Notes: generated by a model from the letters alone, not told the origin. Positions 5,634-48,047 are shown, numbered from the stretch's first letter. The stretch: DNA of 64,000 nucleotides from Actinomycetota bacterium (GCA_004348925.1 RCMX01000006.1:666919-730918); one strand, 5' to 3'. A program made the numbers and translations.

Positions 5634-5666
5634 GGGTGCCCCTCCTCGTGACGGCGCGGACAGAAC

Positions 5667-6119: not shown

Positions 6120-6134
6120 GTGCTCTACCTCTCC

Positions 6135-33306: not shown

Positions 33307-34491
33307 TCAATCGGTGATGCCGAGCAGCCGCCGGGCCTCGGCGGTCAACTCGGCAGCAACCTCCGCGACCGGTCTGCCCTTGGCGCTTGCAGTCCTCGCG
33401 ACGTCCTCGAACTCCGGACGCGCGCCGCGCCGGTCGCCGAGCTGCCAGCTCTTCACGCGAACGCTCCCGAGCGATGTCTTGAGCTCCACGACTTCGCGCT
33501 TCGCGATGAACCGCGTGGTGGGGTCGATGCGAACGCCAAGCGTGCCTGTCTCGGCGATGAGGCGCGCCGAGAGCGCGGCGGCTTCATCCGGCATCGTAAG
33601 CGCGCTCAGGGTCACGGCGGCCCGGCCCTTCTTCATGACGATGGGCGTCTGCCACACGTCGAGCGCGCCGGCTTCGAGCAGTCGCTCCGCCGCGTACGCG
33701 AGATGCTCTGCCGAGAGGTGATCCACGTTGCTGTGGAGCACGACGACCGCCTCGGCGCCGGGCTCCAGCGCGAGCGGGGCAGTGACGTCGCCGAGCAGGA
33801 TGCGCGTGACGTTCGGCACGCCGATGTCACGGGTGCCTGCGCCCGTGCCGCACGCACGCACGGTCATGGGCGGGAGCGCGCCGTACTCGCTGACGAAAGC
33901 GCGCAGGAGCGCGGCGCCCGTGGGCGTGGTGAGCTCGCCGGCGATACCGCCGTCGCAGATCACGATACCCTCGAGCAACGCGGCGGTCGCGGGGGCGGGC
34001 ACCGGCAGTACGCCGTGCGAGCACTCGATCGTGCCGCTGCCGACGGCGACCGGTGAGGCCACGAGGCGCTCGATACCAAGCGCCTGGATGCCGGCCGCGA
34101 CTCCCACGATGTCGACGATCGTGTCGGCCGCACCGACCTCATGGAAGTGCACCTGCTCCACGGGCACGCCGTGCACCCGTGCTTCCGCCTCGGCGAGAAG
34201 GGTGAAGGCGCGGATCGCATCGGCGCGAACCGGCTCCGCAAGGCCCTCGGCGCTCTCCAGCATCGCGCGGATGTCGCGCCAGTGACGCCAGCGGGCGTCC
34301 TCGGCCTGCGCGACTTCGACGCCGACGGCCGCGATGCCCGCCGAGCGGACCTCGTGCACGGCGACCGCATCGGCCAGCCCGAGCGGCGCGAGCGTCGCGC
34401 GCAATTCCTCGATGGTGAACCCGGCATTGATGAGCGCTCCGAGGAACTTATTCCCGGAGACGCCGGTGGAGCAGTCGAGGTACGCGATCAT
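33307..34491 (-). CDS. larC: nickel-pincer cofactor biosynthesis nickel insertase LarC (DUF111)
   Basis: N-terminus MIAYLDCSTGVSGNKFLGALI. Start moved to the internal ATG so that it overlaps the larB stop (ATGA). Confidence 0.8.
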   Translation of the reverse strand: MIAYLDCSTGVSGNKFLGALINAGFTIEELRATLAPLGLADAVAVHEVRSAGIAAVGVEVAQAEDARWRHWRDIRAMLESAEGLAEPVRADAIRAFTLLAEAEARVHGVPVEQVHFHEVGAADTIVDIVGVAAGIQALGIERLVASPVAVGSGTIECSHGVLPVPAPATAALLEGIVICDGGIAGELTTPTGAALLRAFVSEYGALPPMTVRACGTGAGTRDIGVPNVTRILLGDVTAPLALEPGAEAVVVLHSNVDHLSAEHLAYAAERLLEAGALDVWQTPIVMKKGRAAVTLSALTMPDEAAALSARLIAETGTLGVRIDPTTRFIAKREVVELKTSLGSVRVKSWQLGDRRGARPEFEDVARTASAKGRPVAEVAAELTAEARRLLGITD

Positions 34492-35252
34492 CGGGCCTCG
34501 TCTGCGGCGGCGTGATTGATGCGGCTTGCGAGAGCAGCGGCCCCGAAGCCGTTGTCGATGTTCACCACGCCCACGCCTGAGGCGCACGAGTTCAGCATCG
34601 TGAGCAGCGCTGCCAGGCCGCCGAAGCTTGCGCCGTAGCCGATCGATGTCGGCACCGCCACCACCGGGCAGGCGACGAGTCCGGCTACCAGGGACGGCAG
34701 CGCACCCTCCATGCCAGCGACGGCGATGATCACGTTCGCGTCACGCAGCACCTCCTGGTGCGCAAGCAGCCGATGGATGCCGGCGACGCCCACGTCGTAC
34801 AGACGCGTCACGCGGTTGCCCATGACCTCCGCGGAGATCGCGGCCTCCTCGGCGACCGGATGATCCGCCGTGCCGCCCGAGGCGACCACGATGTGACCGT
34901 CGCTTGGGCGCGGGTCGCGTCGGTCGACCACGATGAGGCGGGCTTCCTCGAAGTAGCGGGCGTCGAGCGCCACCTGACCCACCGACTGGAAGTGCGAGGC
35001 GTTCGCTCGCGTGCCAAGGAAGACGGCACCGTGCTCAAGCAGTTCGCGAGCGATCGAACGCACCTGCGACGGCGACTTGCCTTCACAGAACACGACCTCG
35101 GGGAAGCCACAGCGAAGCTCGCGGTGGTGATCGACTTTGGCGTGCCCAAGATCGGTGAACGGCAGCGTGCCGAGACGCGAGAGCGCCTCCTCGGCGGATG
35201 TGTCGCCGCTAGCGACGGCGTCAAGAAGAGCGCGAAGCGTGTCCGAGTCCAT
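34488..35252 (-). CDS. larB: nickel-pincer cofactor biosynthesis carboxylase/hydrolase LarB (PurE-like)
   Basis: PurE-fold C-terminal half and the LarB-type N-terminal region. Confidence 0.75.
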   Translation of the reverse strand: MDSDTLRALLDAVASGDTSAEEALSRLGTLPFTDLGHAKVDHHRELRCGFPEVVFCEGKSPSQVRSIARELLEHGAVFLGTRANASHFQSVGQVALDARYFEEARLIVVDRRDPRPSDGHIVVASGGTADHPVAEEAAISAEVMGNRVTRLYDVGVAGIHRLLAHQEVLRDANVIIAVAGMEGALPSLVAGLVACPVVAVPTSIGYGASFGGLAALLTMLNSCASGVGVVNIDNGFGAAALASRINHAAADEAR

Positions 35253-35343: not shown

Positions 35344-36939
35344 ATGAGGAGACAGCGCGTGACGGACGGGGTGCGCAGGAAGCTCGATATCGACGGTGAG
35401 ACGTATCTCGTCGCCAGGATAGCGAGCGCGCTTTTCGTTATCGGCGTCTACATCATCTGGCTGCACCCGGTGCTTGCTTCCGGGGATGATACCGCGTACT
35501 TCTGGGGTGCAGCGCTCTGGGTGTTGGCGACCGTGCTGTCGGTCGCGCTCCGTTTCATCCGCAATGGCATGGGAGCCAAGCAGGCTCTTCTCGTGACGCT
35601 TCCGTTCGATCTCGTCGCGCTTGCGCTGCTCGCCAGCGCCACCTGGCAGTACGAGGATCCCTACTACGCGTTTTACGTGGGCATCGCCGCAGTCTACGCG
35701 ACGGTGTTCAAGCGCACGCGCGCATGGGTGTACGCGGGGCTGTTCGTCGTCTCGTACCTGGCGGCACACGGAACGATGTCGCACTGGATGCTCGAGCCAG
35801 GGTCGTACATGCTCATAGTGATGAAGGGCGCCACGATCCTGCTGCTCGGCTGGTCCGTCAGTCTCGTTATGGAGCAGCAGGTCGATCGGCAATCCATGCT
35901 TGAGGGGCGCAGCAGGGAGATCGCCGACCTCAACCGGCAGCTCGAGCGCAGCGTGGCCGAACTGCAGGCCATCTCCGAGATCTCCGAGATCATCCACTCC
36001 ACGCTCGACTTCGACAGCGTCGGGCCCGTCGTCATCGACATCCTGCAAAAGGTCATCGACATCCCCGCAGCGTGCATCTTCGTAATCGACAAGGCCAAAC
36101 AGCAGACACTCTTCAGCGCCAGCAAGGGCCTTCGAGGCGAGGGCGCGTACTCGTATAGCGGGCCCGGTCTGATCGCCGAGGCGAGCCTCGATCAGGACGA
36201 GCATTTCTCGTGCATGGAGCTTCTCGACCACAACGAGATGCTCGTGGTCTTCTGTGCCGACGCCCGGCACATCGACGCGCTGGAGCCCGATGACCGCATG
36301 GTCCTCTCGGCGGTCGCGTCCGAGCTGGTCGTGGCGGTGGAGAACTCGCGGCTGTACAAGCTGACGAAGCGACTCTCGATCACCGACGAGCTCACCGACC
36401 TCTACAACTACCGCTACCTGCAGCAGCGGCTCGATGACGAGATCGGCCGGGCGAAACGCTACGGCAAGACGCTATCGTTCCTGATGCTCGACATGGACGA
36501 CTTCAAGGCTATCAACGACACGCACGGGCATCTCGTGGGCGACGCGGTGTTGGCCGAGCTCGGACAGGTCATGAAGACCACCGTGCGCGAGGTCGACGTC
36601 GTTGCCCGCTACGGCGGTGAAGAATTCTCGGTGTTGCTTCCTGAGACAGACGCGGCCGGCGCATTCATCGTGGCCGAGAAGATCCGCGAAGCGGTGGCCC
36701 TTCACAAATTCAGGGACGAAGATGGCGAGCGCAGCGTGCGCGCAACGGTCAGCATCGGCCTCGCGAACTTCCCGGTGCATGCCGAGGACAAAGAATCGCT
36801 CCTGCGTGCGGCGGACGATGCCGTCTATCAGGCGAAGACGATGGGGAAGGACCGCGTTCGTGCCCCGCATATCCGGATGACCCGGCTCGGGCGTCCCACC
36901 GCCGTGCCCGATCCGCCCGAAGGAGAGTTGGAGTCATGA
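35344..36939 (+). CDS. membrane GAF-GGDEF diguanylate cyclase
   Basis: N-terminal multi-TM region. GAF-like middle. GGDEF active site RYGGEEF with an upstream RxxD-like I-site. Confidence 0.85.
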   Translation: MRRQRVTDGVRRKLDIDGETYLVARIASALFVIGVYIIWLHPVLASGDDTAYFWGAALWVLATVLSVALRFIRNGMGAKQALLVTLPFDLVALALLASATWQYEDPYYAFYVGIAAVYATVFKRTRAWVYAGLFVVSYLAAHGTMSHWMLEPGSYMLIVMKGATILLLGWSVSLVMEQQVDRQSMLEGRSREIADLNRQLERSVAELQAISEISEIIHSTLDFDSVGPVVIDILQKVIDIPAACIFVIDKAKQQTLFSASKGLRGEGAYSYSGPGLIAEASLDQDEHFSCMELLDHNEMLVVFCADARHIDALEPDDRMVLSAVASELVVAVENSRLYKLTKRLSITDELTDLYNYRYLQQRLDDEIGRAKRYGKTLSFLMLDMDDFKAINDTHGHLVGDAVLAELGQVMKTTVREVDVVARYGGEEFSVLLPETDAAGAFIVAEKIREAVALHKFRDEDGERSVRATVSIGLANFPVHAEDKESLLRAADDAVYQAKTMGKDRVRAPHIRMTRLGRPTAVPDPPEGELES

Positions 36940-37757
36940 CGAAGGTCGCATTCCTCGGCCCGGCAGGCACGTTCTCGGAAGAGGCGCTGCTCTCGCTCGA
37001 TATGCCTGACGTGGAGCCGGTTTCGTGCACGACCATCGGTGAGGTCTTCGAGGCAGTCGACCGCGGCCGGGCAGACCTTGGCGTGGCGCCGATCGAGAAC
37101 TCGATCGAGGGATCGGTCCCGGCAACGCTCGACGGCCTGGTCTTCGACACACAGCTGGAGATCCAGTCTGAGCTGGTGCTCGACATCCACTTCTCGCTGT
37201 TGGTCGCACCGGGCACCAAGGCAGCCGAGGTGACCTCGATCGTAGCGCACCCGCAGGCGAGCGGTCAGTGCCGACGCTGGCTGGAGCGTAACCTTCCCGG
37301 GCGTGCGACCGTGGCCGCGAACTCGAATGCCGAGGCGGTCCAGACGGCTGTGGCCACGCCGGGCGCTGCGGCGCTCGGCACGGCGCTTGCGGCCGAGCTC
37401 TACGGCGCCGAGGTGCTGCACGAGGGCGTTGAGGACTATGCGGGCAATCAGACGCGCTTCGTCGTCATCGGGCGCGGCATCCGGGAGCGCACGGGCCACG
37501 ACAAGACGTCGCTGGCGCTGTTCATGAAGAAGGACAAGCCGGGCGCGCTGCTCATGATTCTCTCGGAATTTGCGTATGGCGAGATCAACCTCACCAAGAT
37601 TCAGAGCCGGCCCACCAAGCGGCAACTCGGCGACTACATGTTCTTCATAGACTGTGAGGGCCATATCGAGGACGCTCATGTGCGCCTCGCGCTCGATTGC
37701 CTGCGCCTGAAGCTTCGAGAGGTCAAGGTTCTCGGGAGCTATCCGAAGGCTGAGTAG
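36936..37757 (+). CDS. pheA: prephenate dehydratase
   Basis: PDT domain (GPAGTFSEEA...ESRP) plus a C-terminal ACT domain. ATGA overlap with the upstream gene. Confidence 0.85.
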   Translation: MTKVAFLGPAGTFSEEALLSLDMPDVEPVSCTTIGEVFEAVDRGRADLGVAPIENSIEGSVPATLDGLVFDTQLEIQSELVLDIHFSLLVAPGTKAAEVTSIVAHPQASGQCRRWLERNLPGRATVAANSNAEAVQTAVATPGAAALGTALAAELYGAEVLHEGVEDYAGNQTRFVVIGRGIRERTGHDKTSLALFMKKDKPGALLMILSEFAYGEINLTKIQSRPTKRQLGDYMFFIDCEGHIEDAHVRLALDCLRLKLREVKVLGSYPKAE

Positions 37758-37765
37758 GCCGTCCG

Positions 37766-38191
37766 CTAGCTGCGTTCCTCGCCGAGTAGCACCACGCGCT
37801 CTTCCAGCCCGACATCGCGGGCGAGCTTGGCCAGCACCCGGTCGGCGGTGACGAGCGTGTGGCCGCTCTGGATGGCTGCGGCCACGTAGTAGCAGCCGTA
37901 GATCGGGTGGTCGAACGCTAGCGAGATGCGCAGCGCGTCGGCCGTGAGGTCGCCGAGCGGCAGCGCCTGGAGCGGATATGCCCGCAGCTGCGCGACCAGA
38001 TCGTCCGCATCCGAGCCGACGAGCAACCCTCGCCGTACGCGCTTCCAGATTGCGTTGGCGCACTCCGCGTAAAGCAGGTCGGGCGCCGTCAGGCCTTCAG
38101 CGCGCTGCAGGATGCTCACCGCCTCGCGCGACCACTCCTCGCAGACAAGGCACTTGAACATCGCCGACGCGTCAACGACGAGCGATGTCAT
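37766..38191 (-). CDS. vapC: PIN-domain toxin VapC
   Basis: PIN acidic residues (VVDASA...D...D). 4-bp overlap with the upstream antitoxin. Confidence 0.8.
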   Translation of the reverse strand: MTSLVVDASAMFKCLVCEEWSREAVSILQRAEGLTAPDLLYAECANAIWKRVRRGLLVGSDADDLVAQLRAYPLQALPLGDLTADALRISLAFDHPIYGCYYVAAAIQSGHTLVTADRVLAKLARDVGLEERVVLLGEERS

Positions 38192-38424
38192 CGAGAGTCA
38201 CGATCCTCTCGGATGAGGTCTGTGCTGTCGTCTGTGATGTTCCATTCCTTCGATCGCTCACGGAATGCGGCAGCTTCCGCCCACCACTCCTCCAGGGTCG
38301 GTTTCACTGCCGCCGTCAGGATCGACGTGAGTTCTGCCTGCAGCGAGCGATTGTTTCCCGCTGCGCGTGCCTTGAGTTTGGCCACCAGGTCCTCCGACAG
38401 GTTGCGGATGAGAACGTCTGCCAT
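38188..38424 (-). CDS. vapB: ribbon-helix-helix antitoxin (VapB/FitA-like)
   Basis: MADVLIRNLSEDLVAKLKARAA... is an RHH N-terminus. C-terminal DSTDLIREDRDSR toxin-binding tail. Confidence 0.75.
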   Translation of the reverse strand: MADVLIRNLSEDLVAKLKARAAGNNRSLQAELTSILTAAVKPTLEEWWAEAAAFRERSKEWNITDDSTDLIREDRDSR

Positions 38425-38440
38425 GTCGGCCTCCTTTCGA

Positions 38441-38461
38441 GTGATAGCACTATGCTATCAC
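38441..38461. promoter_or_regulatory. inverted repeat GTGATAGC-actat-GCTATCAC upstream of vapB (candidate antitoxin operator)
   Basis: Perfect 8-bp arms seen directly, 17 nt upstream of the vapB start. Confidence 0.5.
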
Positions 38462-38610
38462 TTTGACCGACACCACGAGAGCGTACCGGGCGGGCTGTAC
38501 CCGCCGCCAAACCCTCACTGAACTTCCGCAGCGTAGTGACCGCCGGGCGCTTCTCGGCATAGACTGAGCCTGGGAGGCCCGATGGGGGCCGTCGCACAGG
38601 GGAGGTCGCG

Positions 38611-39237
38611 ATGCGCCGCTCGGCATGGATCATTGCGGTGGGGTTGGTTGTGTGTGTGGCGCTGGCCGGTTGCGGGGGTTCTTCGAGCAGCACGGCGCCG
38701 GGCAGTTCGACGTCCGACGGAAAGGACGCCGAGCCGACTGCGTCGGTGCCCGAGCAGTTCGTGGCGATTCCTGCGAGCGGCGCGAACGAGAAGGCGGCCG
38801 TCGCAGCGGTGCCGACGGCGCTCAAGGCCGGCCTTGAGTTGCGCAAGGGCAGCGGGCAGCCGGAGCCGGACATCGGCGGTATCGATCCGACGTTCACCGC
38901 GTACCTGATCCAGGCGGTCAGCGGTAACATGCTGGTGCTCCTCGAGGTGCACGCGGACGGCGTGGCGCACCCGCTCTACAACCCCACGGCCCCTGCCGAC
39001 GCGAGCACCGTCATGAAGCAGGACGCCTCCCTCAACTCGGGCGCCATCCTCGCCGAGCCCGCGAGCGATGCCGAGAAGGCCGCGGTCGCGGCTGCGAAGA
39101 CCGCGCTTGATTCCGCGGTTCCCGAGAAGGACTTCGCCATCAAGATCCTCGGGTACCGGTTCAACTACCTCAAAGACGGCGAATCTGTTCTTCAGCTCGA
39201 GATCAATCCCGATGGAGGCGTGATCTCGATCAGCTAA
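38611..39237 (+). CDS. lipoprotein of unknown function
   Basis: Lipobox [10 protein letters not shown]. Ala-rich secreted domain. Confidence 0.5.
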
Positions 39238-39256
39238 TGCCGAGGAGGGGACTGAG

Positions 39257-39694
39257 ATGTTCAAGGAGTTCAAAGAGTTCGCGATCAAGGGAAACGCCGT
39301 CGACCTGGCGATAGGCGTCGTCATAGGCGCGGCGTTCGGTGCGGTCGTGACTTCGCTCGTCAAAGACGTCATTATGCCGCCCATCGGTGCGTTGCTCGGC
39401 GGCGCGGACTTCTCGCAGCTGTTCTGGGTGCTGAAGCAGGGGGCGACGGCCGGCCCGTACGCGACCGTCCAGGCGGCCGCCGACGCGGGAGCGGTCACGC
39501 TCAACTACGGTGTCTTCATCAACGCGCTCATCAGTTTCGTGATCGTGGCGTTCGCGGTGTTCATGCTGGTGAAGCTCATCAACCGGCTGCGTAAGCCCGC
39601 TGCCGAGGAGATCACCACCAAGGAATGCCCGTTCTGCAAGAGTGAGATCGCGCTCGCGGCGACACGGTGCCCGGCGTGCACGAGTGAGGTCTAG
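39257..39694 (+). CDS. mscL: large-conductance mechanosensitive channel MscL with C-terminal CxxC...CxxC zinc-ribbon extension
   Basis: MscL N-terminus [28 protein letters not shown]. Tail [24 protein letters not shown]. Confidence 0.85.
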
Positions 39695-40638
39695 GCGACA
39701 GCTGATCGTTCGCGATGCATGTCGAGAGCGTCAACGCTTGGACGAGCTACTTCGTCTCTTGGTATCCAGAGTGGTTGGTCGTGATACCGCTCGTACTTCG
39801 TTCCCTCCAGGGCTTTGGCCAAGGTCAGGCGCAGCGTCGATGTGTCGACTGCGACTAGGCCAAGGTCGAAGAGATCATGCATGTCTGCGCGGAGTAGCAG
39901 TCCGTTTGCCGGATGGTTAGTCTGGGGGCCCCGATACGGCACGATGTGAGCCGCTTCAAGAGCGGGCTCAGCATCGAACCGGGTCATTGCGCATGTGCCT
40001 TCGTACGCCTGCAGTAGCGCTCGCCGGAATCGGGGGGCCCCCTGTCTTCGATGCACCGCCCTGATCACCTTTATGCGGTCATCTTGTTCGGCGGCTGGGT
40101 TGAACGGTTCAAGAGGGAACTCTACAAGCGAAATTGTGACTGAAGCCCGGTTTTCGAGTGCGTTTGCTCGAGAATCTATGCCAACCGAGACAGGCCCGAC
40201 GAGTTCAAAGAATCCTTGGTTGTATCCAGCAACCATCGCCAGCCCGAGAACCTGATAGCCACGACCAGTGGCTCCGGGGATGATTACGCCCACGGGTATG
40301 CCGTCCGCCATACACCTGAATAGTGCCTCGTTTGCAAAGTGGCGCCCTGGGTCTCGGAAGTCCTCGGCGGTCTTCCCTTGCTGATGGTAGAAGTACTGCC
40401 AGGTGCCATCGGTAGGGTGGAGGATCGGGTCCTGATCGTCGTAGACGCCCTTGTGCGTCTGAACTACGCTCACGGCGTATGGAATCCCCGCCGGCTTCCA
40501 GATCCCTTTCTGAAGCGACGAGACCTTGATCGGCAGTCCAACATCGAAGGGTCTGTTTGGGAACACCCTATTGGCGTTTTCCTCGAACCACAAGAGTGCG
40601 TCTACGTGCCACGACTCAAGCCGGTATGCAGTCCCCAT
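39691..40638 (-). CDS. HNH endonuclease (HNH_2-type) with N-terminal putative modified-DNA-recognition domain; candidate type IV restriction enzyme
   Basis: C-terminal HIVPY...[17 protein letters not shown] motif. Visibly lower GC and atypical codons. Confidence 0.6.
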
Positions 40639-40695
40639 TGGCGAGATCCCCCTTCCGAAATAGCATAAACCAAGCCCCTTCGAAATGGAGCAAGA

Positions 40696-41103
40696 GTGCG
40701 CAGAGTCACCGCAGCAGTGATCATCGAACAGGGTCGCCTGTTCTTGGTCCGTCGACCGCCTTCAGATCGGCTGGCTGGCTTCTGGGAGTTGCCAGGCGGG
40801 AAGATCGAAGGAGATGAGACGCCCGAGGCGTGCCTCAAACGCGAGCTCTTGGAGGAGCTGAGTATGGAGGGAGTGGTGGGTGATCTCGCTGCCACATGTG
40901 TCCACCGCTACTCACACGGGGAGTTTGAGCTGCTTGCGTACGCTTTCGAACGGACATCACCTTATGAGCTGCTGATTCACGACCAGGCCGCCTGGGTGGA
41001 CCACGTCTCTATTCGGGACTACAAACTCGCGCCTGCCGACGTGTTCCTGGTCCAGCAGCTCATGTTCAATCGCGGATGGGATCCGGCCAAACCTGTGAAG
41101 TAG
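40696..41103 (+). CDS. NUDIX hydrolase (MutT-like)
   Basis: Nudix box GGKIEGDETPEACLKRELLEELS. GTG start. Confidence 0.8.
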   Translation: MRRVTAAVIIEQGRLFLVRRPPSDRLAGFWELPGGKIEGDETPEACLKRELLEELSMEGVVGDLAATCVHRYSHGEFELLAYAFERTSPYELLIHDQAAWVDHVSIRDYKLAPADVFLVQQLMFNRGWDPAKPVK

Positions 41104-41116
41104 ACGGGCGTGTCTA

Positions 41117-41467
41117 TCACCCCGCCCCGAGCAACCCTCGCACCTGCGCAACCGCCTCGGCACGCTCGCCGGCCGGCAGCTCGTCGACGCGCTTGAGCGC
41201 CATGACCACGCCCTTGTAGCCGTCCTTCTTCGTGTGGCTGGCGAACCTGCCGGGCTCGGGCGGGAGGAAGATCGCGAGGTCCTCGGAGAGTTTGAACCGC
41301 TCGGCGGTCTTGAGGGCGCGTTCAAGCTCCTTGCCGGTCGGCTCCTGCCATTTCTCAAGCGTGTGCATCACGAGCGCCACCGCGAACGCGCTCGCAACGC
41401 CCGCGCCGCCCTGCATGCCGGCGAACGCGGCCATCATCGCGGCTGGCATCTGCGGTTCTCGGCTCAT
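41117..41467 (-). CDS. hypothetical protein
   Basis: ORF with reasonable composition. No recognisable family. Confidence 0.35.
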   Translation of the reverse strand: MSREPQMPAAMMAAFAGMQGGAGVASAFAVALVMHTLEKWQEPTGKELERALKTAERFKLSEDLAIFLPPEPGRFASHTKKDGYKGVVMALKRVDELPAGERAEAVAQVRGLLGAG

Positions 41468-41576
41468 GGCGTCTGCTCTCCTCTCGGCTACGGGTCCATT
41501 GTACTGGCCGGCGGCTTCGGGTAGGACGCCGGGCGGTCGCGGCGTGAGAGGTTCAGATTCCTGAAAGGTCCGGGCA

Positions 41577-41848
41577 ATGTCCGCCGTCTACCGTGGCGCA
41601 GGTGGGTGGAAGGGGACTTGCGATGGACGATGCTGTGGGCCACACGATGAGCTGCTGTTGTCGGATGTGAGCGGACTCATCGAGAGCGCGCATGTGCGAG
41701 CAGCAGCAGCGGTGAACAGCGAGCTTGTGCTGCTGTACTGGAGCATCGGCAAACGGGTGCGCGAGGAACTGCTTGGTGGTCAGCGTGCCGAGTAGGGCAT
41801 ACGGGTCGTGAAGCGCCTGGCGCGACATCTGACCGAACGCTACGGGTA
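41577..41848 (+). pseudogene. decayed N-terminal remnant of a DUF1016/YhcG-like PD-(D/E)xK nuclease gene
   Basis: Translation ...LIESAHVRAAAAVNSELVLLYWSIGKRVREELLGGQRAE* matches the conserved DUF1016 N-terminal helix. After a stop and a +1 shift it continues YGIRVVKRLARHLTERYG*. The nuclease domain is absent. Confidence 0.55.
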
Positions 41849-41867
41849 GATTTCCGAGTAACGCGAC

Positions 41868-42509
41868 CTACCGCGCGGCTTTCGTCTCGGCACGCCTGAG
41901 CGCGAGACCTCGCCACAGGTACAGTGACGCGGCCGTGCGGTAGGGGCGCCACGGCTCGCCGATGAACGCGACCTCGTCACGGCTGGCGGTGCCTTCGAAG
42001 CCGTACATCCAGCCGACGGTGGCGCGCACCGCGCCGTCATCGATCGCAAGCACGTCCGGTCGGCCAAGGGAGAAGATCAGGTACATCTCGGCGGTCCAGC
42101 GGCCGATGCCTTTGACGGCGGTGAGCTCGGCGACGATATCGTCGTCGGGAAGCGCGCCGAGGCGGCCGATGTCGAGCCTGCCGTCGAGGGTTCGCTCGGC
42201 AAGGTCGCGGAGGAACGACGTCTTACTGCCCGAGAGCCCCGCGCCGCGAAGCGTGTCAGTGTCGGCCGCTATGATGCTTTCGGGGGTGACGCCGCCAAGC
42301 GCGGTCTCGACGCGACCCCAGATCGTGCTGGCGGCCTTGTCCGAGAGCTGTTGGGAGACGATCGCGCTCGCGAGCGAGTTGAAGCCGTCGTTCTCGAGCC
42401 GCTGCGAGATGGGGCCGACGCGATCGATGAGCGCGCCAAGGATCGGGTCAGCGGCACAGAGGTGCACGACCTCGGGGGAGGTGAGGGTGAGTTCGATACG
42501 AGATTCCAT
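41868..42509 (-). CDS. alkA: DNA-3-methyladenine glycosylase II (AlkA-like, HhH-GPD)
   Basis: HhH-GPD core LTAVKGIGRWTAEMYL and catalytic Asp region. Confidence 0.8.
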   Translation of the reverse strand: MESRIELTLTSPEVVHLCAADPILGALIDRVGPISQRLENDGFNSLASAIVSQQLSDKAASTIWGRVETALGGVTPESIIAADTDTLRGAGLSGSKTSFLRDLAERTLDGRLDIGRLGALPDDDIVAELTAVKGIGRWTAEMYLIFSLGRPDVLAIDDGAVRATVGWMYGFEGTASRDEVAFIGEPWRPYRTAASLYLWRGLALRRAETKAAR

Positions 42510-42529
42510 GCGGCGATTGTAGCGCGAGA

Positions 42530-43072
42530 TCAGCGCGCGGCGCCGAGCCAGGCCTCATACGCGTCGGCGTCATACAGCACCACGCGCACCTCGCGCACGG
42601 AGTGCGTACGCTCAAGCGCGGTGCGAAGGGCGCGTAGAGCGACGTGCGCCGCCGCCATCATCGGATAGCCGTAGATGCCGGTCGAGATGCTCGGGAATGC
42701 GATTGACTGAAGCCCGAGCCTGTCAGCGATCTCCACGCTCGTGCGGTATGCCGAGGCGAGCGCTTCGGCTTCCCCGTGGTCGCCGCCGTGCCACACCGGG
42801 CCGAGTGCGTGGATGACGTACTGCGCCTTGAGATCGCCGGCGACGGTTGCGACGGCCTCACCAGGCACGAGCTGCTCGCGGTCCGCCATCACGCGGCGGC
42901 AGTCCTCGGTCAGGGTCTTGCCGCCGGCGGTGTGAATCGCGCCGCAAACGCCGCCGCCGGGCCTCAGGCTGGCGTTGGTTGCGTTCACGATGGCATCCAC
43001 GCGTTCATGCGTGATGTCGCCGCGCACGATCCTGATGACGCTGCTGCCGATGTGAATCTCTTCATGATTCAT
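42530..43072 (-). CDS. macro-domain protein (ADP-ribose/O-acetyl-ADP-ribose hydrolase, YmdB-like)
   Basis: Macro motifs VNATNASLRPGGGVCGAIH and FPSISTGIYGYP. Confidence 0.8.
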   Translation of the reverse strand: MNHEEIHIGSSVIRIVRGDITHERVDAIVNATNASLRPGGGVCGAIHTAGGKTLTEDCRRVMADREQLVPGEAVATVAGDLKAQYVIHALGPVWHGGDHGEAEALASAYRTSVEIADRLGLQSIAFPSISTGIYGYPMMAAAHVALRALRTALERTHSVREVRVVLYDADAYEAWLGAAR

Positions 43073-43120
43073 AAGACAACAATACCGCATTGAGCCGACG
43101 GCGGAAGACGAGAACGCACG

Positions 43121-43534
43121 TTAAGTCTCACCTATCCAGATGACCGCCACGCCGGAGGCTCCGGCGACGTCGCGGAGACGGGCGTCGGAGGTCGCCAGCG
43201 TCGCTCGCATTCTCGTGGCAACCGCGAGGTAGGCGCAGTCGTAGACGGGATGCTGCCGTTCGATGCCGATCGCGAGGGCAAGGCGCGTGTACTCCGCGGC
43301 CGCTACCACCGAGAATCCGAGTAGCTCGAAGGCTTCGAGCGCGAGAGACGCCTGCTCTGGAGAGGTCTCGCCGCGGCGAACGCGTTTCCACAGGGCGTTG
43401 GCTACCTCAAGGGCTGTCCAGTCCAAGACGGTCGGGTCGGGCGCAGCGGCAAATTCTACCCGGGCCTGCTCGGACCCAGGCTCGTTCGTTACGAGCTTCA
43501 GAGCCGAACTCGCATCGAAGATGAGAGTGGTCAT
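43121..43534 (-). CDS. vapC: PIN-domain toxin VapC (second copy)
   Basis: PIN fold. About 35% identical to the 37766 copy by eye. Confidence 0.75.
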   Translation of the reverse strand: MTTLIFDASSALKLVTNEPGSEQARVEFAAAPDPTVLDWTALEVANALWKRVRRGETSPEQASLALEAFELLGFSVVAAAEYTRLALAIGIERQHPVYDCAYLAVATRMRATLATSDARLRDVAGASGVAVIWIGET

Positions 43535-43761
43535 CGCGAGTCTCTATCCTCCCGAATGAGGAAGGTTGAGTCGGTGTCGAAGGTGGGCAGCCGGTCTCGC
43601 AGCTCCTCCAGCAGCGCGATCGACTCGGCCTTGCTGAGGCGAACCGAGCGCTTGAGGGTGTCGTGGACCTCGGCCTGCAGCGAGCGGCCGTGCTGTTCGG
43701 CGCGCTTCTTGAGCTGCTCAAGCACGTGCGGATCCAGATTGCGGATGAGGAAGTCGGTCAC
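43531..43761 (-). CDS. vapB: RHH antitoxin VapB (second copy)
   Basis: GTG start after AGGAG. LIRNL N-terminus and DSTFLIREDRDSR tail shared with copy 1. Confidence 0.7.
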   Translation of the reverse strand: MTDFLIRNLDPHVLEQLKKRAEQHGRSLQAEVHDTLKRSVRLSKAESIALLEELRDRLPTFDTDSTFLIREDRDSR

Positions 43762-43908
43762 AAGGACTCCTCGGCGTCGGCGGAGTGATACCGATATGAT
43801 ACTACCCACCGCGAACCTCCAGCCATCCGCCCGTCTGACCGTTCTTCTCGGCTATAATCCCAGCTAGCACCGACCGCGCCCTGAACGATCTCCGACCGGA
43901 GGCCTACC

Positions 43909-45189
43909 ATGCTCGACGCACGCTTCGTCCGAGAGAATCTCGACCTTGTCCGCGCGTCGGTCGAGAACCGTCGCGGGAAGTGGAACTTCGATCGCTTCGT
44001 CGCGCTTGACGAGGAGCGTCGGCGTCTCATCGGCGAGGTCGAATCGCGCCAGGCGCGCCGCAATGAGGCGTCCAAGGAGATCGGCGCGCTCATGAAGGCG
44101 GGCGAGCGCGATGCCGCCGAGGCGCGGAAGGAAGAAGTGCGTGTCATCAACGAGGAGATTGCCGTCGACGAGGAGCTTCTCGGCAAGGTCGATTCCGAGG
44201 TGCGCGAGCTGCTCATGACCATCCCGAACGTCCCGCACGAGAGCGTGCCGGTCGGCGCTGACGAAGCCGAGAACGTCGAAATCCGCCGCTGGGGAACGCC
44301 GCGCTCGTTCGACTTCGAGCCCAAACCGCACTGGGACCTTGGACCGGAAGCCGGCCTCGTGGACTTCGAGGCGGGCGTGAAGCTTGCCGGAAGCCGTTTC
44401 GTCGTCCTCGGCAGGGATGGCGCGCGGCTCAACCGGGCGCTCATCAACTTCATGCTCGACACCCACGGCTCGCGCGGCTTCACCGAGTGGTCCGTGCCCG
44501 CGCTCGCCAACGTCGACACGCTCACCGGCACGGGTCAGCTGCCCAAGTTCGAGGACGACCTCTTCAAGACGGGCGAGGGCCTCTACCTCATCCCCACTGC
44601 CGAGGTGCAGCTCACCAACCTCCACCGCGACGAGGTCCTTGAGGCCGACACCCTCCCGCGCCGCTACTGCGCGTACACCCCGTGCTTCCGCGAGGAGGCG
44701 GGCAGTGCCGGCCGAGACACCCGCGGCATGATCCGCGTGCACCAGTTCGACAAGGTGGAGATGGTGAAGTTCGCCACGCCCGAGACGTCGATGGACGAGC
44801 TCGAATCGATGGTGGCCGATGCCGAGAACATCCTGCAGCTTCTCGGCCTGCCGTACCGCGTGATCGTGCTCTGTACGGGCGACATGGGCTTTGGCGCTGC
44901 GAAGACCTACGACCTCGAGGTCTGGCTGCCGAGCTACGACGACTACAAGGAGATCTCCAGCTGCAGCAACTGCTGGGACTTCCAGGCGCGCCGCGCAAGC
45001 ATCAAGTACCGCGGGGGCGACTTCAAAGGCAGCCGCCTCGTACACACCCTCAACGGCAGCGGTCTCGCGGTGGGGCGGACGCTGGTGGCTGTGCTTGAGA
45101 ACTACCAGCAGGCCGACGGCAGCATCGTGGTGCCGGAGGTCCTGCGCCCGTACATGGGCGGTCAGGAAGTCATTCGACCGCAGGCGTAG
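43909..45189 (+). CDS. serS: seryl-tRNA synthetase
   Basis: Class II aaRS motifs and an N-terminal coiled-coil. Confidence 0.9.
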   Translation: MLDARFVRENLDLVRASVENRRGKWNFDRFVALDEERRRLIGEVESRQARRNEASKEIGALMKAGERDAAEARKEEVRVINEEIAVDEELLGKVDSEVRELLMTIPNVPHESVPVGADEAENVEIRRWGTPRSFDFEPKPHWDLGPEAGLVDFEAGVKLAGSRFVVLGRDGARLNRALINFMLDTHGSRGFTEWSVPALANVDTLTGTGQLPKFEDDLFKTGEGLYLIPTAEVQLTNLHRDEVLEADTLPRRYCAYTPCFREEAGSAGRDTRGMIRVHQFDKVEMVKFATPETSMDELESMVADAENILQLLGLPYRVIVLCTGDMGFGAAKTYDLEVWLPSYDDYKEISSCSNCWDFQARRASIKYRGGDFKGSRLVHTLNGSGLAVGRTLVAVLENYQQADGSIVVPEVLRPYMGGQEVIRPQA

Positions 45190-45571: not shown

Positions 45572-45689
45572 TCGTCCTCCTCGGTACGAGACGGGCTACC
45601 CGAACAGTACCATCAGTGTCTGACATGCTGCGGTGCGTCTGCCTGGGGTAGAACCTACGTACGAGTCCATCCACTCCTGCGGAGGCACC

Positions 45690-48047
45690 GTGAGCACCCC
45701 AGCATCTCCCACCATCCTCGTCGTCTTCGGCGCGACCGGCGACCTCATGGCGCGCAAGATCGTCCCCTCGCTCGCGTACCTCAAGGTGAAAGACCGCCTG
45801 CCCGAGCGCTTCCGCGTCATCGGCTTCTCCCGGCGCGACTGGAGCGACGCCGACTTGCGCTCGCATGTCGCGACTATCCTCGACGCCTACGAAGGCATCG
45901 CGCCCGCCGCCGAGGACCGCGAGGCGTTTCTCGGCATGTTCTCCTACCAGCGAGGTACGTTCGACGATGAGGACGCGTACCGGCAGCTTGCGGACGATGT
46001 CGAGGCCGTCGATGCGGCGTGGGGGCTGTGTGCAAGCAAGCTCTACTACCTCGCGGTGCCGCCCGAGAACTACCGTGTGATCTTCCAGCGCCTCTCGGAC
46101 AGCGGACTTGCCGAGCCATGCGACGACGGTGTCGGCTTCACGCGTGTGCTCGTAGAGAAGCCGTTCGGCAAGGACGGCAGCTCCGCGCAGGAACTCGATG
46201 AGCTTCTCGGCAGTCTCTTCGCCGAGGAGCAGGTGTACCGAATCGATCACTACCTCGCGAAGGAGATGCTGCAGGGCATCCTCTCCTTCCGCTTCAGCAA
46301 CGCGCTCTTCGAGCCATCGTGGGATGCGGGCTCGATCGATCACATCGACATCACGCTCCTGGAGTCGCTCGGGGTGGAGAAGCGCGGCGCGTTCTACGAC
46401 GGCGTCGGTGCGTTGCGCGACGTGGGGCAGAACCACCTGCTGCAGATGCTGGCGCTCGTACTCATGGACAAACCGGCGGACCTCTCGGCGGAAAGCATCC
46501 GGGCGAATCGCACCCGTTTTCTCCAGGACCTGAAGGCGCCCTCTCCCGACGACATCACGGCGCACTCGTTCCGGGCGCAGTACGTTGGCTACCGCGACAT
46601 CCCTGGCGTTGCCTCCGACTCCACCACTGAGACCTACTTTCGCCTGCGCTTCGCGCTGCACGGTGGACGGTGGGGTGGCGTGCCCGTCACGATGGAATCC
46701 GGCAAACGCATGGGCGAGGCGCTCAAGCAGGTCTCGGTCACCTTCCGCGCTCCGGAGGCCTGTCTGTGCGATGCCGAGGGACCGGGCCCGTACGAGAACC
46801 GCGTGACGTTCCAACTTGAGCCCGAGGAGTCCATCAAGATCCAGTTCTGGGCGAAGAAGCCGGGCTTCGAGCGCGAGCTCGAGCGGCGTGAGTTCACCTT
46901 CTTCCTGTACGAGAAGGAGGAGAAGGTCCAGTACGTCGAGGAGTACGCCAAGCTGCTGCTCGACGCGATCGCCGGCGACCAGACGCTCTTCGTCGCCACC
47001 GACGAGGTCCGCGCGATGTGGGCGTTCATCGACCCGTTCATGCGCGTGTGGGGGAGCGACGCCGTGCCGCTCGACAACTACGAGCCCGAGTCGGCCGAGG
47101 TGACCCGCCGTGCGCGCGAGAAGGTCGACGAGTCGCACATCGCTCGCATGGAGATCGGCGTCGTGGGTCTCGGCAAGATGGGCGCCAACCTGGCACGCAA
47201 CCTCATCGACCACCGCTGGCGCGTCGTGGGCTGGAACCGCACGCATTCGGTCGCCGAAGAGATGGAGGCCGAGGGCCTCGAGTCCGCCGCAACGTTTGCG
47301 GAGCTCGTGCGCGCGCTCAAACCGCCGCGTTCGGTGTGGCTGATGGTGCCGGCTGGCGCACCCGTGGATGACGTCATCTTCGGCGAGGGCGGTCTCGCGG
47401 AGCTGCTCGAACCCGGCGACGTCGTCATCGACGGCGGCAACTCGCACTTCATCCAGACGATCGAGCGCGCGCCGAGGGTTCTCTCGGCGGGACTGCGGTT
47501 CATCGACGTGGGGACCTCGGGCGGGCCGGGCGGCGCCCGGAACGGCGCCTGCCTCATGATCGGCGGCGTGCGCGAGGACTTCGAGCGCCTGGAGCATCTG
47601 TGGCGCGATCTGTCGGTGCGCGACGGCTACCGTTTCTTCGACGGGCACGGCTCGGGCCACTTCGTGAAGATGGTCCACAACGGCATCGAGTACGGCATGA
47701 TGCAGGCCATCGCCGAGGGATTTGCGCTCATGCGTCGCTCGGAGCTGGGCATTGACCTCGACGCCGCCGCCGAGGTCTACAACCGCGGCAGCGTCATCGA
47801 GTCGCGCCTTATCGGCTGGCTGGAGCAGGCGTATCGCGAGTTCGGCGAGGACCTGGAGGGCGTCTCGGGCACGGTCGGGCACACGGGCGAGGGCGAGTGG
47901 ACCGTGCGCGCCGCCGAGGCGCTCGGCGTGGACGCGCGCGTCATCCGCGACGCGCTTGAGGTGCGCAAGGAGTCCGAGACGAGCCCGAGCTACACCGGGC
48001 AGATCCTCTCGGCGCTGAGGAACCAGTTCGGCGGACATGCGCTGTGA
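45690..48047 (+). CDS. zwf-gnd: glucose-6-phosphate 1-dehydrogenase fused to short-form 6-phosphogluconate dehydrogenase
   Basis: N-terminal FGATGDLMARKIVPSL and RIDHYLGKE-like G6PD motifs. From about residue 490, MEIGVVGLGKMGANLARNL... is a Rossmann fold plus 6PGDH C-domain. Single ORF with no stop. GTG start after GGAGG. Confidence 0.8.
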   Translation: MSTPASPTILVVFGATGDLMARKIVPSLAYLKVKDRLPERFRVIGFSRRDWSDADLRSHVATILDAYEGIAPAAEDREAFLGMFSYQRGTFDDEDAYRQLADDVEAVDAAWGLCASKLYYLAVPPENYRVIFQRLSDSGLAEPCDDGVGFTRVLVEKPFGKDGSSAQELDELLGSLFAEEQVYRIDHYLAKEMLQGILSFRFSNALFEPSWDAGSIDHIDITLLESLGVEKRGAFYDGVGALRDVGQNHLLQMLALVLMDKPADLSAESIRANRTRFLQDLKAPSPDDITAHSFRAQYVGYRDIPGVASDSTTETYFRLRFALHGGRWGGVPVTMESGKRMGEALKQVSVTFRAPEACLCDAEGPGPYENRVTFQLEPEESIKIQFWAKKPGFERELERREFTFFLYEKEEKVQYVEEYAKLLLDAIAGDQTLFVATDEVRAMWAFIDPFMRVWGSDAVPLDNYEPESAEVTRRAREKVDESHIARMEIGVVGLGKMGANLARNLIDHRWRVVGWNRTHSVAEEMEAEGLESAATFAELVRALKPPRSVWLMVPAGAPVDDVIFGEGGLAELLEPGDVVIDGGNSHFIQTIERAPRVLSAGLRFIDVGTSGGPGGARNGACLMIGGVREDFERLEHLWRDLSVRDGYRFFDGHGSGHFVKMVHNGIEYGMMQAIAEGFALMRRSELGIDLDAAAEVYNRGSVIESRLIGWLEQAYREFGEDLEGVSGTVGHTGEGEWTVRAAEALGVDARVIRDALEVRKESETSPSYTGQILSALRNQFGGHAL

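What the first reader, a model, noticed from the sequence alone, without database searches (positions are those of the whole stretch)
37766..43809. Accessory segment bracketed by two directly oriented, diverged VapBC modules
Two PIN/RHH toxin-antitoxin pairs at 37766-38424 and 43121-43761 sit in the same orientation. Both antitoxins carry the same LIRNL head and DST(D/F)LIREDRDSR tail. Between them lie a lipoprotein, mscL with a zinc-ribbon tail, an HNH nuclease, a NUDIX hydrolase, an orphan ORF, a decayed DUF1016 nuclease, alkA and a macro-domain gene. Strands alternate, and the 39.7-41.9 kb core is visibly lower in GC (about 55-58% by eye, against about 67% flanking). This looks like a defence and DNA-damage island whose boundaries are marked, and possibly stabilised, by duplicated addiction modules. 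There is no integrase, so acquisition was probably ancient or via homologous recombination between the TA copies.
Basis: partly seen in the sequence, partly recalled or inferred. Interest (0 to 1): 0.7.

Follow-up and report, generated by a model that had tools for sequence, protein, structure and literature searches.

The report
Toxin-antitoxin-flanked variable defence patch
The 6-kb stretch between the housekeeping genes pheA and serS is a real but fairly ordinary variable patch, built piecemeal rather than acquired as one island. Its two flanking toxin-antitoxin pairs are old, separately inherited relatives, and its only foreign-looking part is a two-gene cassette predicted to cut methylated DNA.

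Summary
The segment is accessory. In distant relatives pheA and serS are adjacent, and in closer Coriobacteriia relatives the same interval holds 5-9 kb of quite different genes.

It is not one island bounded by duplicated addiction modules:
- The two VapBC modules are 33% (toxin) and 44% (antitoxin) identical in protein and 51% in DNA. Their longest shared exact run is 14 nt, so they cannot recombine.
- Each module has its own orthologue in a different relative, vapBC1 beside pheA and vapBC2 beside serS.
- The shared antitoxin head, tail and operator half-site are traits of the whole family.
- VapC1 has glycine at a catalytic aspartate that is invariant in the 14 other family members compared, so it is probably a dead toxin.
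- vapBC1, mscL, the orphan gene and the alkA-like gene form a backbone shared with relatives, with native codon composition.
- The GC dip comes only from HNH plus NUDIX (39691-41103). These sit in a slot between mscL and the orphan gene that is empty in one relative and holds other defence genes in two.

The HNH protein is predicted to be an SRA-HNH enzyme that cuts modified DNA. In all five genomic contexts seen (this window and four others) it is paired with a MutT/NudG-like NUDIX, a pairing I did not find described. Overall interest is modest.

The parts
36936..37757 (+). pheA (prephenate dehydratase + ACT), the conserved left anchor; overlaps the upstream GGDEF gene by 4 nt
   Evidence: Pfam PDT 1.4e-57. 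Orthologues 53-96% identical in all relatives.
37766..38191 (-). VapC1, a PIN-domain toxin with Gly99 in place of the invariant catalytic Asp; probably inactive
   Evidence: Pfam PIN. Orthologues at the same position in L163 (59%) and L174 (63%). The motif reads YGC (codon GGC) where all 14 other family members compared have YDC. Identical in three assemblies.
38188..38424 (-). VapB1, a FitA-like ribbon-helix-helix antitoxin
   Evidence: Pfam FitA-like_RHH 1.8e-13. 78% and 74% identical to the L163 and L174 orthologues, 44% to VapB2.
38440..38462 (.). Probable vapB1 operator: a perfect 10-nt inverted repeat (AGTGATAGCA-TAG-TGCTATCACT) 8 nt upstream of the ribosome-binding site
   Evidence: The same TGCTATCA half-sites occur as direct repeats upstream of the vapB orthologues.
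38611..39237 (+). Predicted lipoprotein (signal peptide, lipobox LAGC). No family match, and no homologue in any fetched locus other than copies of this genome
   Evidence: GC3 0.85.
39257..39694 (+). MscL mechanosensitive channel with a C-terminal CPFC-x9-CPAC zinc-ribbon tail; a backbone gene
   Evidence: Pfam MscL 6.8e-42. Orthologues with the same tail in L163, L167, L174 and L178.
39691..40638 (-). Predicted SRA-HNH modification-dependent (type IV) restriction endonuclease; low-GC cargo
40696..41103 (+). MutT/NudG-like NUDIX hydrolase, transcribed divergently from the HNH gene with 57 bp between the start codons
   Evidence: Pfam NUDIX_4 3.9e-18. Best NCBIfam match is pyrimidine (d)NTP diphosphatase, 1.1e-22, below its cut-off. 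PADLOC PDC-S07 1.9e-34. Found next to the HNH homologue in L174, L177, L178 and L219. GC3 0.69.
41117..41467 (-). Lineage-restricted 116-aa helical protein of unknown function (the 'orphan'); a backbone gene
   Evidence: Orthologues in L163 (69%), L167 (72%), L174 (66%) and L081 (46%). Only 10 clusters among 1.84 billion representatives. No fold match. GC3 0.90.
41643..41846 (+). DUF1016 (YhcG-like nuclease) pseudogene remnant
   Evidence: Pfam DUF1016_N 6.1e-8 on ORF 41577-41795. 63% identical to residues 21-88 of the L178 DUF1016 gene, with an in-frame stop.
41868..42509 (-). HhH-GPD DNA glycosylase (AlkA-like); a backbone gene
   Evidence: Pfam HhH-GPD 1.7e-16. Orthologues directly next to the orphan gene in L163 (66%) and L174 (71%).
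42530..43090 (-). Macro-domain protein (YmdB-like O-acetyl-ADP-ribose deacetylase)
   Evidence: Pfam Macro 2.5e-39. NCBIfam 194 bits against a cut-off of 200. 89% orthologue next to vapBC2 in L223.
43121..43534 (-). VapC2, a PIN toxin with all four acidic catalytic residues present
   Evidence: Pfam PIN 1.3e-9. 77-82% identical homologues P0252-P0254. 79% orthologue in L223. Alignment.
43531..43761 (-). VapB2, a FitA-like RHH antitoxin (GTG start at 43761)
   Evidence: Pfam 1.1e-12. 91% orthologue in L223 and 66% in L081, both next to serS.
43785..43801 (-). Probable vapB2 operator: direct repeat TATCA-N6-TATCAC upstream of the ribosome-binding site
   Evidence: The only match in the window, with 0 of 100 shuffles matching. 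Conserved in L223 and L081.
43909..45189 (+). serS (seryl-tRNA synthetase), the conserved right anchor
   Evidence: Pfam. Orthologues 55-94% identical.

Best explanation
The pheA-serS interval of this Coriobacteriia-type actinobacterial MAG is a chromosomal plasticity zone, assembled and eroded piecemeal. It is not a single acquired island.

A partly conserved backbone (vapBC1, mscL, the orphan gene, the alkA-like glycosylase, and macro-vapBC2 next to serS) is inherited, with losses and rearrangements, among close relatives. Defence cargo is swapped in and out at fixed junctions, above all between mscL and the orphan gene. In this genome that slot holds a compact, low-GC, divergently transcribed two-gene cassette. 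It encodes a predicted SRA-HNH endonuclease that would cut DNA containing 5-methyl- or 5-hydroxymethylcytosine, plus a MutT/NudG-like NUDIX hydrolase. A second junction, between the orphan gene and alkA, carries the wreck of a DUF1016 nuclease gene.

The two VapBC modules are anciently diverged members of one FitAB-like family. In each, the RHH antitoxin presumably represses its own operon through TATCA(C) repeat operators and blocks the PIN RNase through its conserved C-terminal tail. They sit at the edges because toxin-antitoxin modules accumulate and persist in such zones, not because they were duplicated when an island arrived. VapC1 has lost a catalytic aspartate and is probably no longer toxic.

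Shown: gene content, synteny, divergence, composition, the predicted fold, and the motif losses. Inferred: enzymatic activities, operator function, and the order of gains and losses.
For: Variable interval:
- pheA and serS are adjacent in L032 and L129.
- Different cargo lies between the same anchors in L001, L169, L171 and L173.

Backbone:
- L163 has pheA-vapBC1-mscL-orphan-alkA with nothing between mscL and the orphan gene.
- L174 has the same backbone plus HNH-NUDIX and further cargo in that slot.
- L167 has a VapC1 remnant, mscL, a 5.4-kb cassette (SLFN/AlbA_2, MutH-like, Vsr, Dcm) and then the orphan gene.
- L081 and L223 have vapBC2 next to serS, and L223 also has macro.

TA divergence:
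- Protein and DNA identities.
- Distinct clades.
- Tail and operator are family-wide.
- VapC1 D99G.

Composition:
- Only HNH and NUDIX deviate as foreign cargo.
- The pair keeps GC3 of 0.63-0.73 in four genomes (this one and three of the other four; not measured for L219) whose own genes run 0.82-0.95.

SRA-HNH fold.

NUDIX pairing: present in all five genomic contexts of full-length homologues, counting this window. Absent from 39 viral loci carrying only the HNH_2 domain and from a 40%-identical Rhizobium plasmid homologue.
Against: - No species tree or complete genomes were available, so gains cannot be separated rigorously from losses.
- pheA identity (L163 89%, L174 83%) and MscL identity (L163 63%, L174 81%) rank the relatives differently. 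This implies recombination or transfer within the zone and complicates any simple history.
- In L163 and L174 serS is not found downstream within the fetched DNA. The interval is therefore rearranged there, not merely refilled.
- The lipoprotein gene has native composition but no homologue outside this genome, so its origin is open.
- The five HNH-NUDIX contexts may all come from one broad actinobacterial clade.
- All functions are predictions.
Confidence: 0.8

Rival explanations
1. A single defence and DNA-damage island was acquired as a unit. Its boundaries are marked by a duplicated VapBC module, and insertion or excision occurred by homologous recombination between the two copies.
For: Two same-family modules in direct orientation bracket the segment, with no others in the 64-kb window. 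The interval is accessory relative to L032 and L129.
Against: The modules are 51% identical in DNA with a 14-nt longest exact match. Each has its own orthologues in different relatives without the other copy. More than 40 database clusters are as close or closer to VapC2 than VapC1 is. The interior backbone is shared with relatives and its composition is mostly native-like. No border repeats exist beyond coding homology and short chance-level matches.
Confidence: 0.04
2. Differential loss. The full arrangement, possibly with HGD-D/BadFG and more, is ancestral to this genus-level clade. Relatives differ mainly by deletions and rearrangements, not by insertions.
For: Backbone genes recur in L163, L167, L174, L081 and L223, and those in this window mostly have native GC3. 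L167 shows a VapC1 remnant and the window a DUF1016 remnant, which is direct evidence of decay. HNH-NUDIX sits in the same slot and orientation in L174 at 77% and 61% identity, comparable with the backbone divergence.
Against: L169, L171 and L173 hold unrelated cargo (hydrogenase, flavodoxins, GGDEF arrays) with no trace of the backbone. The HNH-NUDIX pair occurs in unrelated neighbourhoods (L177, L219) and keeps atypically low GC3 wherever it was measured. The mscL-orphan slot holds three different cargos.
Confidence: 0.2
3. Functional bracketing. The flanking toxin-antitoxin modules are retained because they penalise deletions that remove the segment, and so stabilise the defence cargo. It does not matter how they arrived.
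For: TA modules of various families flank or intersperse the variable cargo in L174, L081, L178, L177 and L219 as well. VapBC2 looks intact, with conserved operator repeats.
Against: VapC1 lacks a catalytic Asp. L167 has lost VapC1, and other relatives lack both modules while keeping a filled interval. Co-location of TA and defence genes is also expected from shared insertion and tolerance hotspots.
Confidence: 0.25

Closest known systems
FitAB / VapBC type II toxin-antitoxin systems (RHH antitoxin + PIN RNase)
   Same: Antitoxin-then-toxin operon with a 4-nt overlap. FitA-like RHH head. PIN toxin. Repeat operators immediately upstream of the ribosome-binding site. Conserved antitoxin C-terminal tail. 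The FitAB mechanism (RHH binds the operator, the PIN toxin stabilises the complex) is described in PMC3920265.
   Different: VapC1 carries Gly at the third catalytic acidic position. The two local copies share head, tail and half-site core, so cross-talk is conceivable but untested. The 8-nt half-site TGCTATCA resembles what I recall of the FitAB operator, which I could not verify in the library.
Defence islands and integration hotspots between conserved core genes
   Same: A fixed pair of core anchors (pheA, serS) with different defence, TA and other cargo in different relatives. A type IV-like nuclease, a nuclease remnant and TA modules cluster together. No dedicated integrase is present.
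   Different: Part of the interval is a vertically shared backbone that includes ordinary genes (mscL, a glycosylase). Exchange is concentrated at gene-to-gene junctions with almost no intergenic DNA (HNH overlaps the mscL stop codon, and 13 nt separate NUDIX from the orphan gene).
SRA-HNH modification-dependent restriction endonucleases (TagI, ScoA3IV/Sco5333, TbiR51I/Tbis1)
   Different: Only about 21% identical to TagI. The profile search finds only the HNH part of VcaM4I. It is paired with a NUDIX gene, which the papers on this family that I read do not mention. Activity is untested.
E. coli NudG (Orf135) and MutT nucleotide-pool sanitising Nudix hydrolases
   Same: 135 aa, with a Nudix box nearly identical in pattern to MutT (GGKIEGDETPEACLKRELLEELS). 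The best NCBIfam match is the NudG-type pyrimidine (d)NTP diphosphatase.
   Different: Scores are below every equivalog cut-off. It is located in a defence cassette, not a housekeeping context. It matches PADLOC candidate PDC-S07, which is untested.

Membership tests
VapBC (FitAB-like) type II TA | Adjacent, co-oriented small antitoxin (RHH) and PIN toxin genes with overlapping stop and start | tested here: met
   Both modules, with 4-nt overlaps; Pfam FitA-like_RHH and PIN.
VapBC (FitAB-like) type II TA | Four conserved acidic residues in the PIN active site | tested here: inconclusive
   VapC2 has all four positions (Asp7, Glu43, Asp99, Asp117 in VapC1 numbering). VapC1 has D7, E43 and D117 but G99, where the 14 other family members compared have D. 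The feature is met for VapC2 and not met for VapC1.
VapBC (FitAB-like) type II TA | Repeat operator in the promoter region, bound by the antitoxin | tested here: met
   Shown at the sequence level only. Conserved TATCA(C) half-site pairs lie upstream of all 7 vapB genes examined. Binding was not tested.
VapBC (FitAB-like) type II TA | Toxin arrests growth and the cognate antitoxin neutralises it | not testable with these tools
   Requires expression experiments.
Classical genomic island | Integrase or recombinase, tRNA or att target, flanking direct repeats | tested here: not met
   No such Pfam domains in the segment. The nearest tRNA is at 53.3 kb. The only border repeats are homologous coding sequence of 18-19 nt, plus short chance-level matches.
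Classical genomic island | Atypical composition across the island | tested here: not met
   Only 39691-41103 deviates (58.2% GC). The rest of the segment is 65.7%, against 65.3% for the window.
Classical genomic island | Presence or absence as a unit among relatives | tested here: not met
   Sub-blocks occur independently in L163, L167, L174, L081 and L223.
Defence-island / core-gene hotspot | The same core-gene flanks hold different cargo in different genomes | tested here: met
   The pheA-serS content differs in L001, L032, L169, L171 and L173. The mscL-orphan slot is empty in L163, holds HNH-NUDIX here, holds more genes in L174, and holds an R-M system plus SLFN/AlbA_2 in L167.
SRA-HNH modification-dependent REase | N-terminal SRA (PUA-superfamily) fold | tested here: met
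SRA-HNH modification-dependent REase | C-terminal HNH catalytic motif intact | tested here: met
   Pfam HNH_2 3.8e-13. H231, N241, H242, N245 and H254 invariant in 46 homologues.
SRA-HNH modification-dependent REase | Cleavage depends on 5mC or 5hmC | not testable with these tools
   Needs biochemistry or tests for toxicity in dcm+ and dcm- hosts, as done for Sco5333 (PMC4333417).
NudG/MutT Nudix hydrolase | Nudix box GX5EX7REUXEEXGU | tested here: met
   GGKIEGDETPEACLKRELLEELS read directly from the translation, with the last G replaced by S. Pfam NUDIX and NUDIX_4.
NudG/MutT Nudix hydrolase | Score above a curated equivalog cut-off | tested here: not met
   Best score 80.3 bits against a cut-off of 156 for PRK10546, and 65.2 against 97.9 for TIGR00586.
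DUF1016 / YhcG-like nuclease | Full-length ORF including the PD-(D/E)xK domain | tested here: not met
   Only about 68 codons remain, with an in-frame stop. It is a pseudogene.

The most novel reading that the evidence does not exclude
The divergent SRA-HNH and NUDIX pair may be a dedicated two-gene type IV restriction module. The NudG/MutT-like hydrolase would destroy modified dCTP (5-methyl- or 5-hydroxymethyl-dCTP). This would stop salvaged or phage-made modified nucleotides from entering host DNA and turning the nuclease on its own chromosome, or would starve phages of modified precursors.

A smaller possibility concerns the two VapBC modules. VapB1, now partnered with a dead VapC1 yet sharing head, tail and operator core with VapB2, might act as a spare 'anti-addiction' antitoxin or repressor for vapBC2.
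Probability: 0.2. Interest if true: 0.6.

Novelty: new member of a known kind. Interest (0 to 1): 0.3.

Why it matters
As submitted, the finding illustrates two known themes: toxin-antitoxin modules clustering with defence genes, and cargo turnover at a hotspot between core genes.

Three results are worth keeping:
- The case shows how a 'TA-bracketed island' can be an illusion produced by independent, old paralogues.
- There is a well-defined slot between mscL and the orphan gene. It is empty in one relative and carries three different cargos in others. These include a cytosine methyltransferase system in one genome and a predicted methylcytosine-dependent nuclease in another.
- A predicted SRA-HNH enzyme is repeatedly paired with a NUDIX hydrolase. 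If the pairing is functional, it would add a nucleotide-pool component to type IV restriction, and it can be tested directly.

Tried and rejected
- Border repeats: none beyond coding homology and short chance-level matches.
- tblastx synteny comparison: too noisy in high-GC DNA. Replaced by tblastn with called proteins.
- My GC3-based gene caller miscalled some genes, for example LarB at 34488-35252(-). This was corrected using the annotations.
- Rfam scan of 30-50 kb: no matches.
- Promoter and terminator scan: nothing above chance.
- Orphan protein: no Pfam, PADLOC or NCBIfam match. The AlphaFold2 helical model has no meaningful PDB match.
- Lipoprotein: no family match and no homologue in fetched loci outside this genome.
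- Viral-contig scan for the HNH family: found only proteins sharing the HNH_2 domain, none with a NUDIX neighbour.
- Plasmid search: one full-length homologue (Rhizobium, 40% identity), without NUDIX.
- Literature searches for a Nudix partner of PUA/SRA-HNH enzymes: nothing found.
- FitAB operator sequence: I could not confirm it in the library.
- No target-site duplication was evident at the edges of the HNH-NUDIX insert.

Full report
**What is there.** The window is about 65% GC. Its closest relatives are Coriobacteriia and Actinomycetota MAGs. The HNH protein is identical to NCBI TDB38199.1, 'MAG: Actinobacteria bacterium', on an 816-kb contig. Two Logan contigs are 100% identical to the window.

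- VapC1/VapB1 (PIN and FitA-like RHH, minus strand).
- A lipoprotein-like ORF (lipobox LAGC, no family match).
- MscL with a CPFC-x9-CPAC tail.
- An HNH_2 protein.
- A NUDIX protein.
- A 116-aa orphan.
- A DUF1016 remnant.
- An HhH-GPD glycosylase.
- A macro-domain protein.
- VapC2/VapB2 (minus strand).

The DUF1016 piece covers only residues 21-88 of a homologue and has an in-frame stop. No integrase, transposase, tRNA or Rfam element lies in the segment.

**Composition.** The low-GC core is real but confined to 39.5-41.1 kb. The bin 40001-41000 is the lowest of the 64 one-kb bins (58.1%, z = -2.5). The HNH-NUDIX span 39691-41103 is 58.2% GC. Without it the segment is 65.7% GC, against 65.3% for the window. 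GC3 per gene agrees. HNH is 0.63 and NUDIX 0.69. The lipoprotein gene, mscL, the orphan gene, alkA, macro and vapC1 are 0.82-0.90, like the rest of the window. vapB1 (0.69), vapC2 (0.76) and vapB2 (0.78) are somewhat lower.

**The two VapBC modules.** They are homologous but old:
- Toxins are 33% identical and antitoxins 44%.
- DNA identity is 51%, and the longest shared exact run is 14 nt. That is far too little for homologous recombination.
- The repeats that link the two borders are the coding sequence of the shared LIRNL head and the stop/start overlap. The other repeat families are short, low-identity matches of the kind expected by chance.
- The DST-x-(L/D)IREDRD(S/G)R tail is invariant in all six family members aligned from five genomes. 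It is a family trait, not a sign of local duplication.
- A database search with VapC2 finds homologues at 77-82%, 49% and 46%, then about 40 clusters at 35-44%. All are as close or closer than VapC1.
- An identity matrix separates a VapC1 clade (window, L163, L174; then L178 and P0262) from a VapC2 clade (window, P0252-P0254; then P0255 and P0256).

Every vapB of the family is preceded by two TATCA(C)-containing half-sites 11 nt apart, just upstream of the ribosome-binding site. Upstream of vapB1 in this window the distal half-site is flipped, which makes a perfect 10-nt palindrome at 38440-38462. Upstream of vapB2 it is a direct repeat at 43785-43801, the only match to that pattern in the window, with none in 100 shuffles. 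This fits autoregulated FitAB-like operons, whose mechanism is described in PMC3920265.

VapC1 carries Gly99 (GGC) where all 14 other family members compared have the PIN catalytic Asp in a 'YDC' motif. The substitution is present in three independent assemblies. The left-hand 'addiction module' therefore probably no longer has a working toxin.

**Comparative genomics.** The interval is accessory.
- In a distant actinobacterial MAG (L032, SerS 55%) the order is GGDEF-pheA-serS with about 200 bp between pheA and serS. L129 also shows the two genes adjacent.
- In relatives with 82-84% PheA identity the two anchors are kept but enclose other genes:
  - L169: HGD-D, BadFG, TetR, two flavodoxins and a GGDEF gene.
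  - L171: HGD-D, BadFG, a NiFe hydrogenase and a PAS-GGDEF gene.
  - L173: HGD-D, BadFG, hypothetical genes and three PAS-GGDEF genes.
- L001 (PheA 67%) holds a PAS/GGDEF sensor.

The segment is nevertheless not a unit.
- L163 (PheA 89%) has pheA, VapC1 (59%), VapB1 (78%), MscL (63%), the orphan (69%) and AlkA (66%). It lacks the lipoprotein gene, HNH, NUDIX and DUF1016. Only 7 nt separate mscL from the orphan gene.
- L174 (PheA 83%) has the same backbone. Between mscL and the orphan gene it carries GT28, a GMC oxidoreductase, HNH (77%), NUDIX (61%), GYD, SLFN/AlbA_2, an HTH gene and Fic. A different RHH_1/PIN pair follows alkA.
- L167 (PheA 89%) has pheA, HGD-D, BadFG, a 29-aa VapC1 remnant and MscL. 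A 5.4-kb cassette follows (SLFN/AlbA_2, an RHH gene, a MutH-like nuclease, Vsr and a C5-methyltransferase), and then the orphan gene.
- On the right side, L081 (SerS 81%) has the VapB2 orthologue (66%) and a PIN gene immediately upstream of serS. Further upstream lie other RHH/PIN pairs, the orphan (46%) and a low-GC DUF262/GmrSD-like gene.
- L223 (SerS 94% over the 53 residues available) has serS, VapB2 (91%), VapC2 (79%) and Macro (89%).

So vapBC1 belongs with the pheA side and vapBC2 with the serS side, each with its own history. The junctions mscL|orphan and orphan|alkA are the places where cargo turns over. Identities rank the relatives differently for pheA and mscL, which suggests recombination within the zone.

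**The low-GC cassette.** The HNH protein belongs to a family of about 314-aa proteins (2,686 database hits).
- AlphaFold2 with 46 homologues gives a confident N-terminal domain (pLDDT above 90, residues 10-150).
- The C-terminal HNH_2 domain has invariant H231, N245 and H254. It matches VcaM4I by profile search (E = 5.8e-5).
- This is the architecture of the SRA-HNH enzymes TagI, Sco5333 and Tbis1. These bind 5mC in any sequence context and are toxic in dcm+ hosts (PMC4333417, PMC6212794).

The adjacent NUDIX gene is transcribed divergently, with 57 bp between the start codons. It has a MutT-like Nudix box. Its best curated match is the NudG-type pyrimidine (d)NTP diphosphatase, below the family cut-off. 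It also matches the untested PADLOC candidate PDC-S07.

The divergent NUDIX-HNH pair recurs in every context of a full-length homologue that I could inspect:
- L174.
- L177, in a 2.5-Mb genome, next to NERD and HipBA genes.
- L178, next to MazEF pairs, endonuclease V, DUF1016 and IS21, and again near a VapBC pair and mscL.
- L219, next to a MazG-like gene, RhuM, PemK/MazE and a PIN gene.

In this window, L174, L177 and L178 the pair keeps GC3 of 0.63-0.73, against 0.82-0.95 for host genes (not measured for L219). The pairing is absent from 39 viral loci carrying only the HNH_2 domain and from a 40%-identical Rhizobium plasmid homologue. I found no paper describing a Nudix partner for PUA/SRA-HNH enzymes.

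I would expect the hydrolase to remove modified dCTP, protecting the host chromosome or starving phage. That is inference only.

**Verdict.**
This is an accessory, defence-flavoured segment with no integrase. It is wrong on the central idea that duplicated addiction modules mark, and could recombine to mobilise, a single island.
- The best description is a plasticity zone between two core genes. It has a partly inherited backbone, slot-wise cargo exchange and accumulated toxin-antitoxin modules, one of which is decaying.
- This is a known kind of arrangement, so interest is modest.
- The most novel lead is the conserved SRA-HNH plus NUDIX pair.

Noticed in passing
window 39617-39694; L163, L167, L174, L178 mscL genes: MscL carries a C-terminal CPFC-x9-CPAC zinc-ribbon-like tail that is conserved in all five relatives examined. 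It is a lineage feature of the channel, not a local oddity.
   Followed up: partly
window 45633-48047 (+): An 804-aa fusion of glucose-6-phosphate dehydrogenase (G6PD_N + G6PD_C) with a 6-phosphogluconate-dehydrogenase-like module (NAD_binding_2 plus part of the 6PGD C-terminal domain). It is conserved in L081 (71%), L001 (61%) and L169.
   Followed up: partly
L167 10172-15477 versus window 39691-41103: The same slot between mscL and the orphan gene holds a C5-methyltransferase, Vsr and MutH-like system plus SLFN/AlbA_2 in one relative. In this genome it holds a predicted 5mC-reading SRA-HNH nuclease. These two kinds of cargo are mutually antagonistic.
   Followed up: partly
L081 9243-9883: The antitoxin next to serS is 66% identical to VapB2, but its partner toxin is only 36-37% identical to VapC2 (its nearest relative is P0256 at 44%). 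Either the toxin has been swapped or it is evolving much faster than the antitoxin.
   Followed up: partly
L081 5786-7795 (-): A 669-aa DUF262/GmrSD-like protein sits in a 53-56% GC stretch (locus background roughly 61-68%). It lies between the orphan homologue and another RHH/PIN pair, so a second predicted type IV-like nuclease occupies the equivalent zone in a relative.
   Followed up: partly
L219 4176-4517: A MazG-like NTP pyrophosphohydrolase lies directly beside the NUDIX gene of the NUDIX-HNH pair. This places two nucleotide-pool enzymes next to one predicted modification-dependent nuclease.
   Followed up: no
window 5262-6500 (-), within 5-8 kb: Three adjacent small ORFs (123, 150 and 121 aa) all match the same gene of L032, so they look like tandem paralogues. 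They lie in the second-lowest-GC stretch of the window (59.8-61.7%).
   Followed up: no
window 32281-33093 (+), 33307-34491 (-), 34488-35252 (-): A second HhH-GPD glycosylase (endonuclease III/MutY-like) and larC/larB-like genes (Ni_insertion, AIRC) form the conserved left flank upstream of GGDEF-pheA in all close relatives.
   Followed up: no
window 38611-39237 (+): The lipoprotein gene has native-like GC3 (0.85) but no homologue in any fetched locus outside this genome, and no family match. Its origin is unexplained.
   Followed up: partly
L178 1-2535: An IS21-type element (rve and IstB genes) abuts a truncated DUF1016 gene. This is the closest homologue of the window's DUF1016 remnant, so the gene is under decay in more than one genome.
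   Followed up: no
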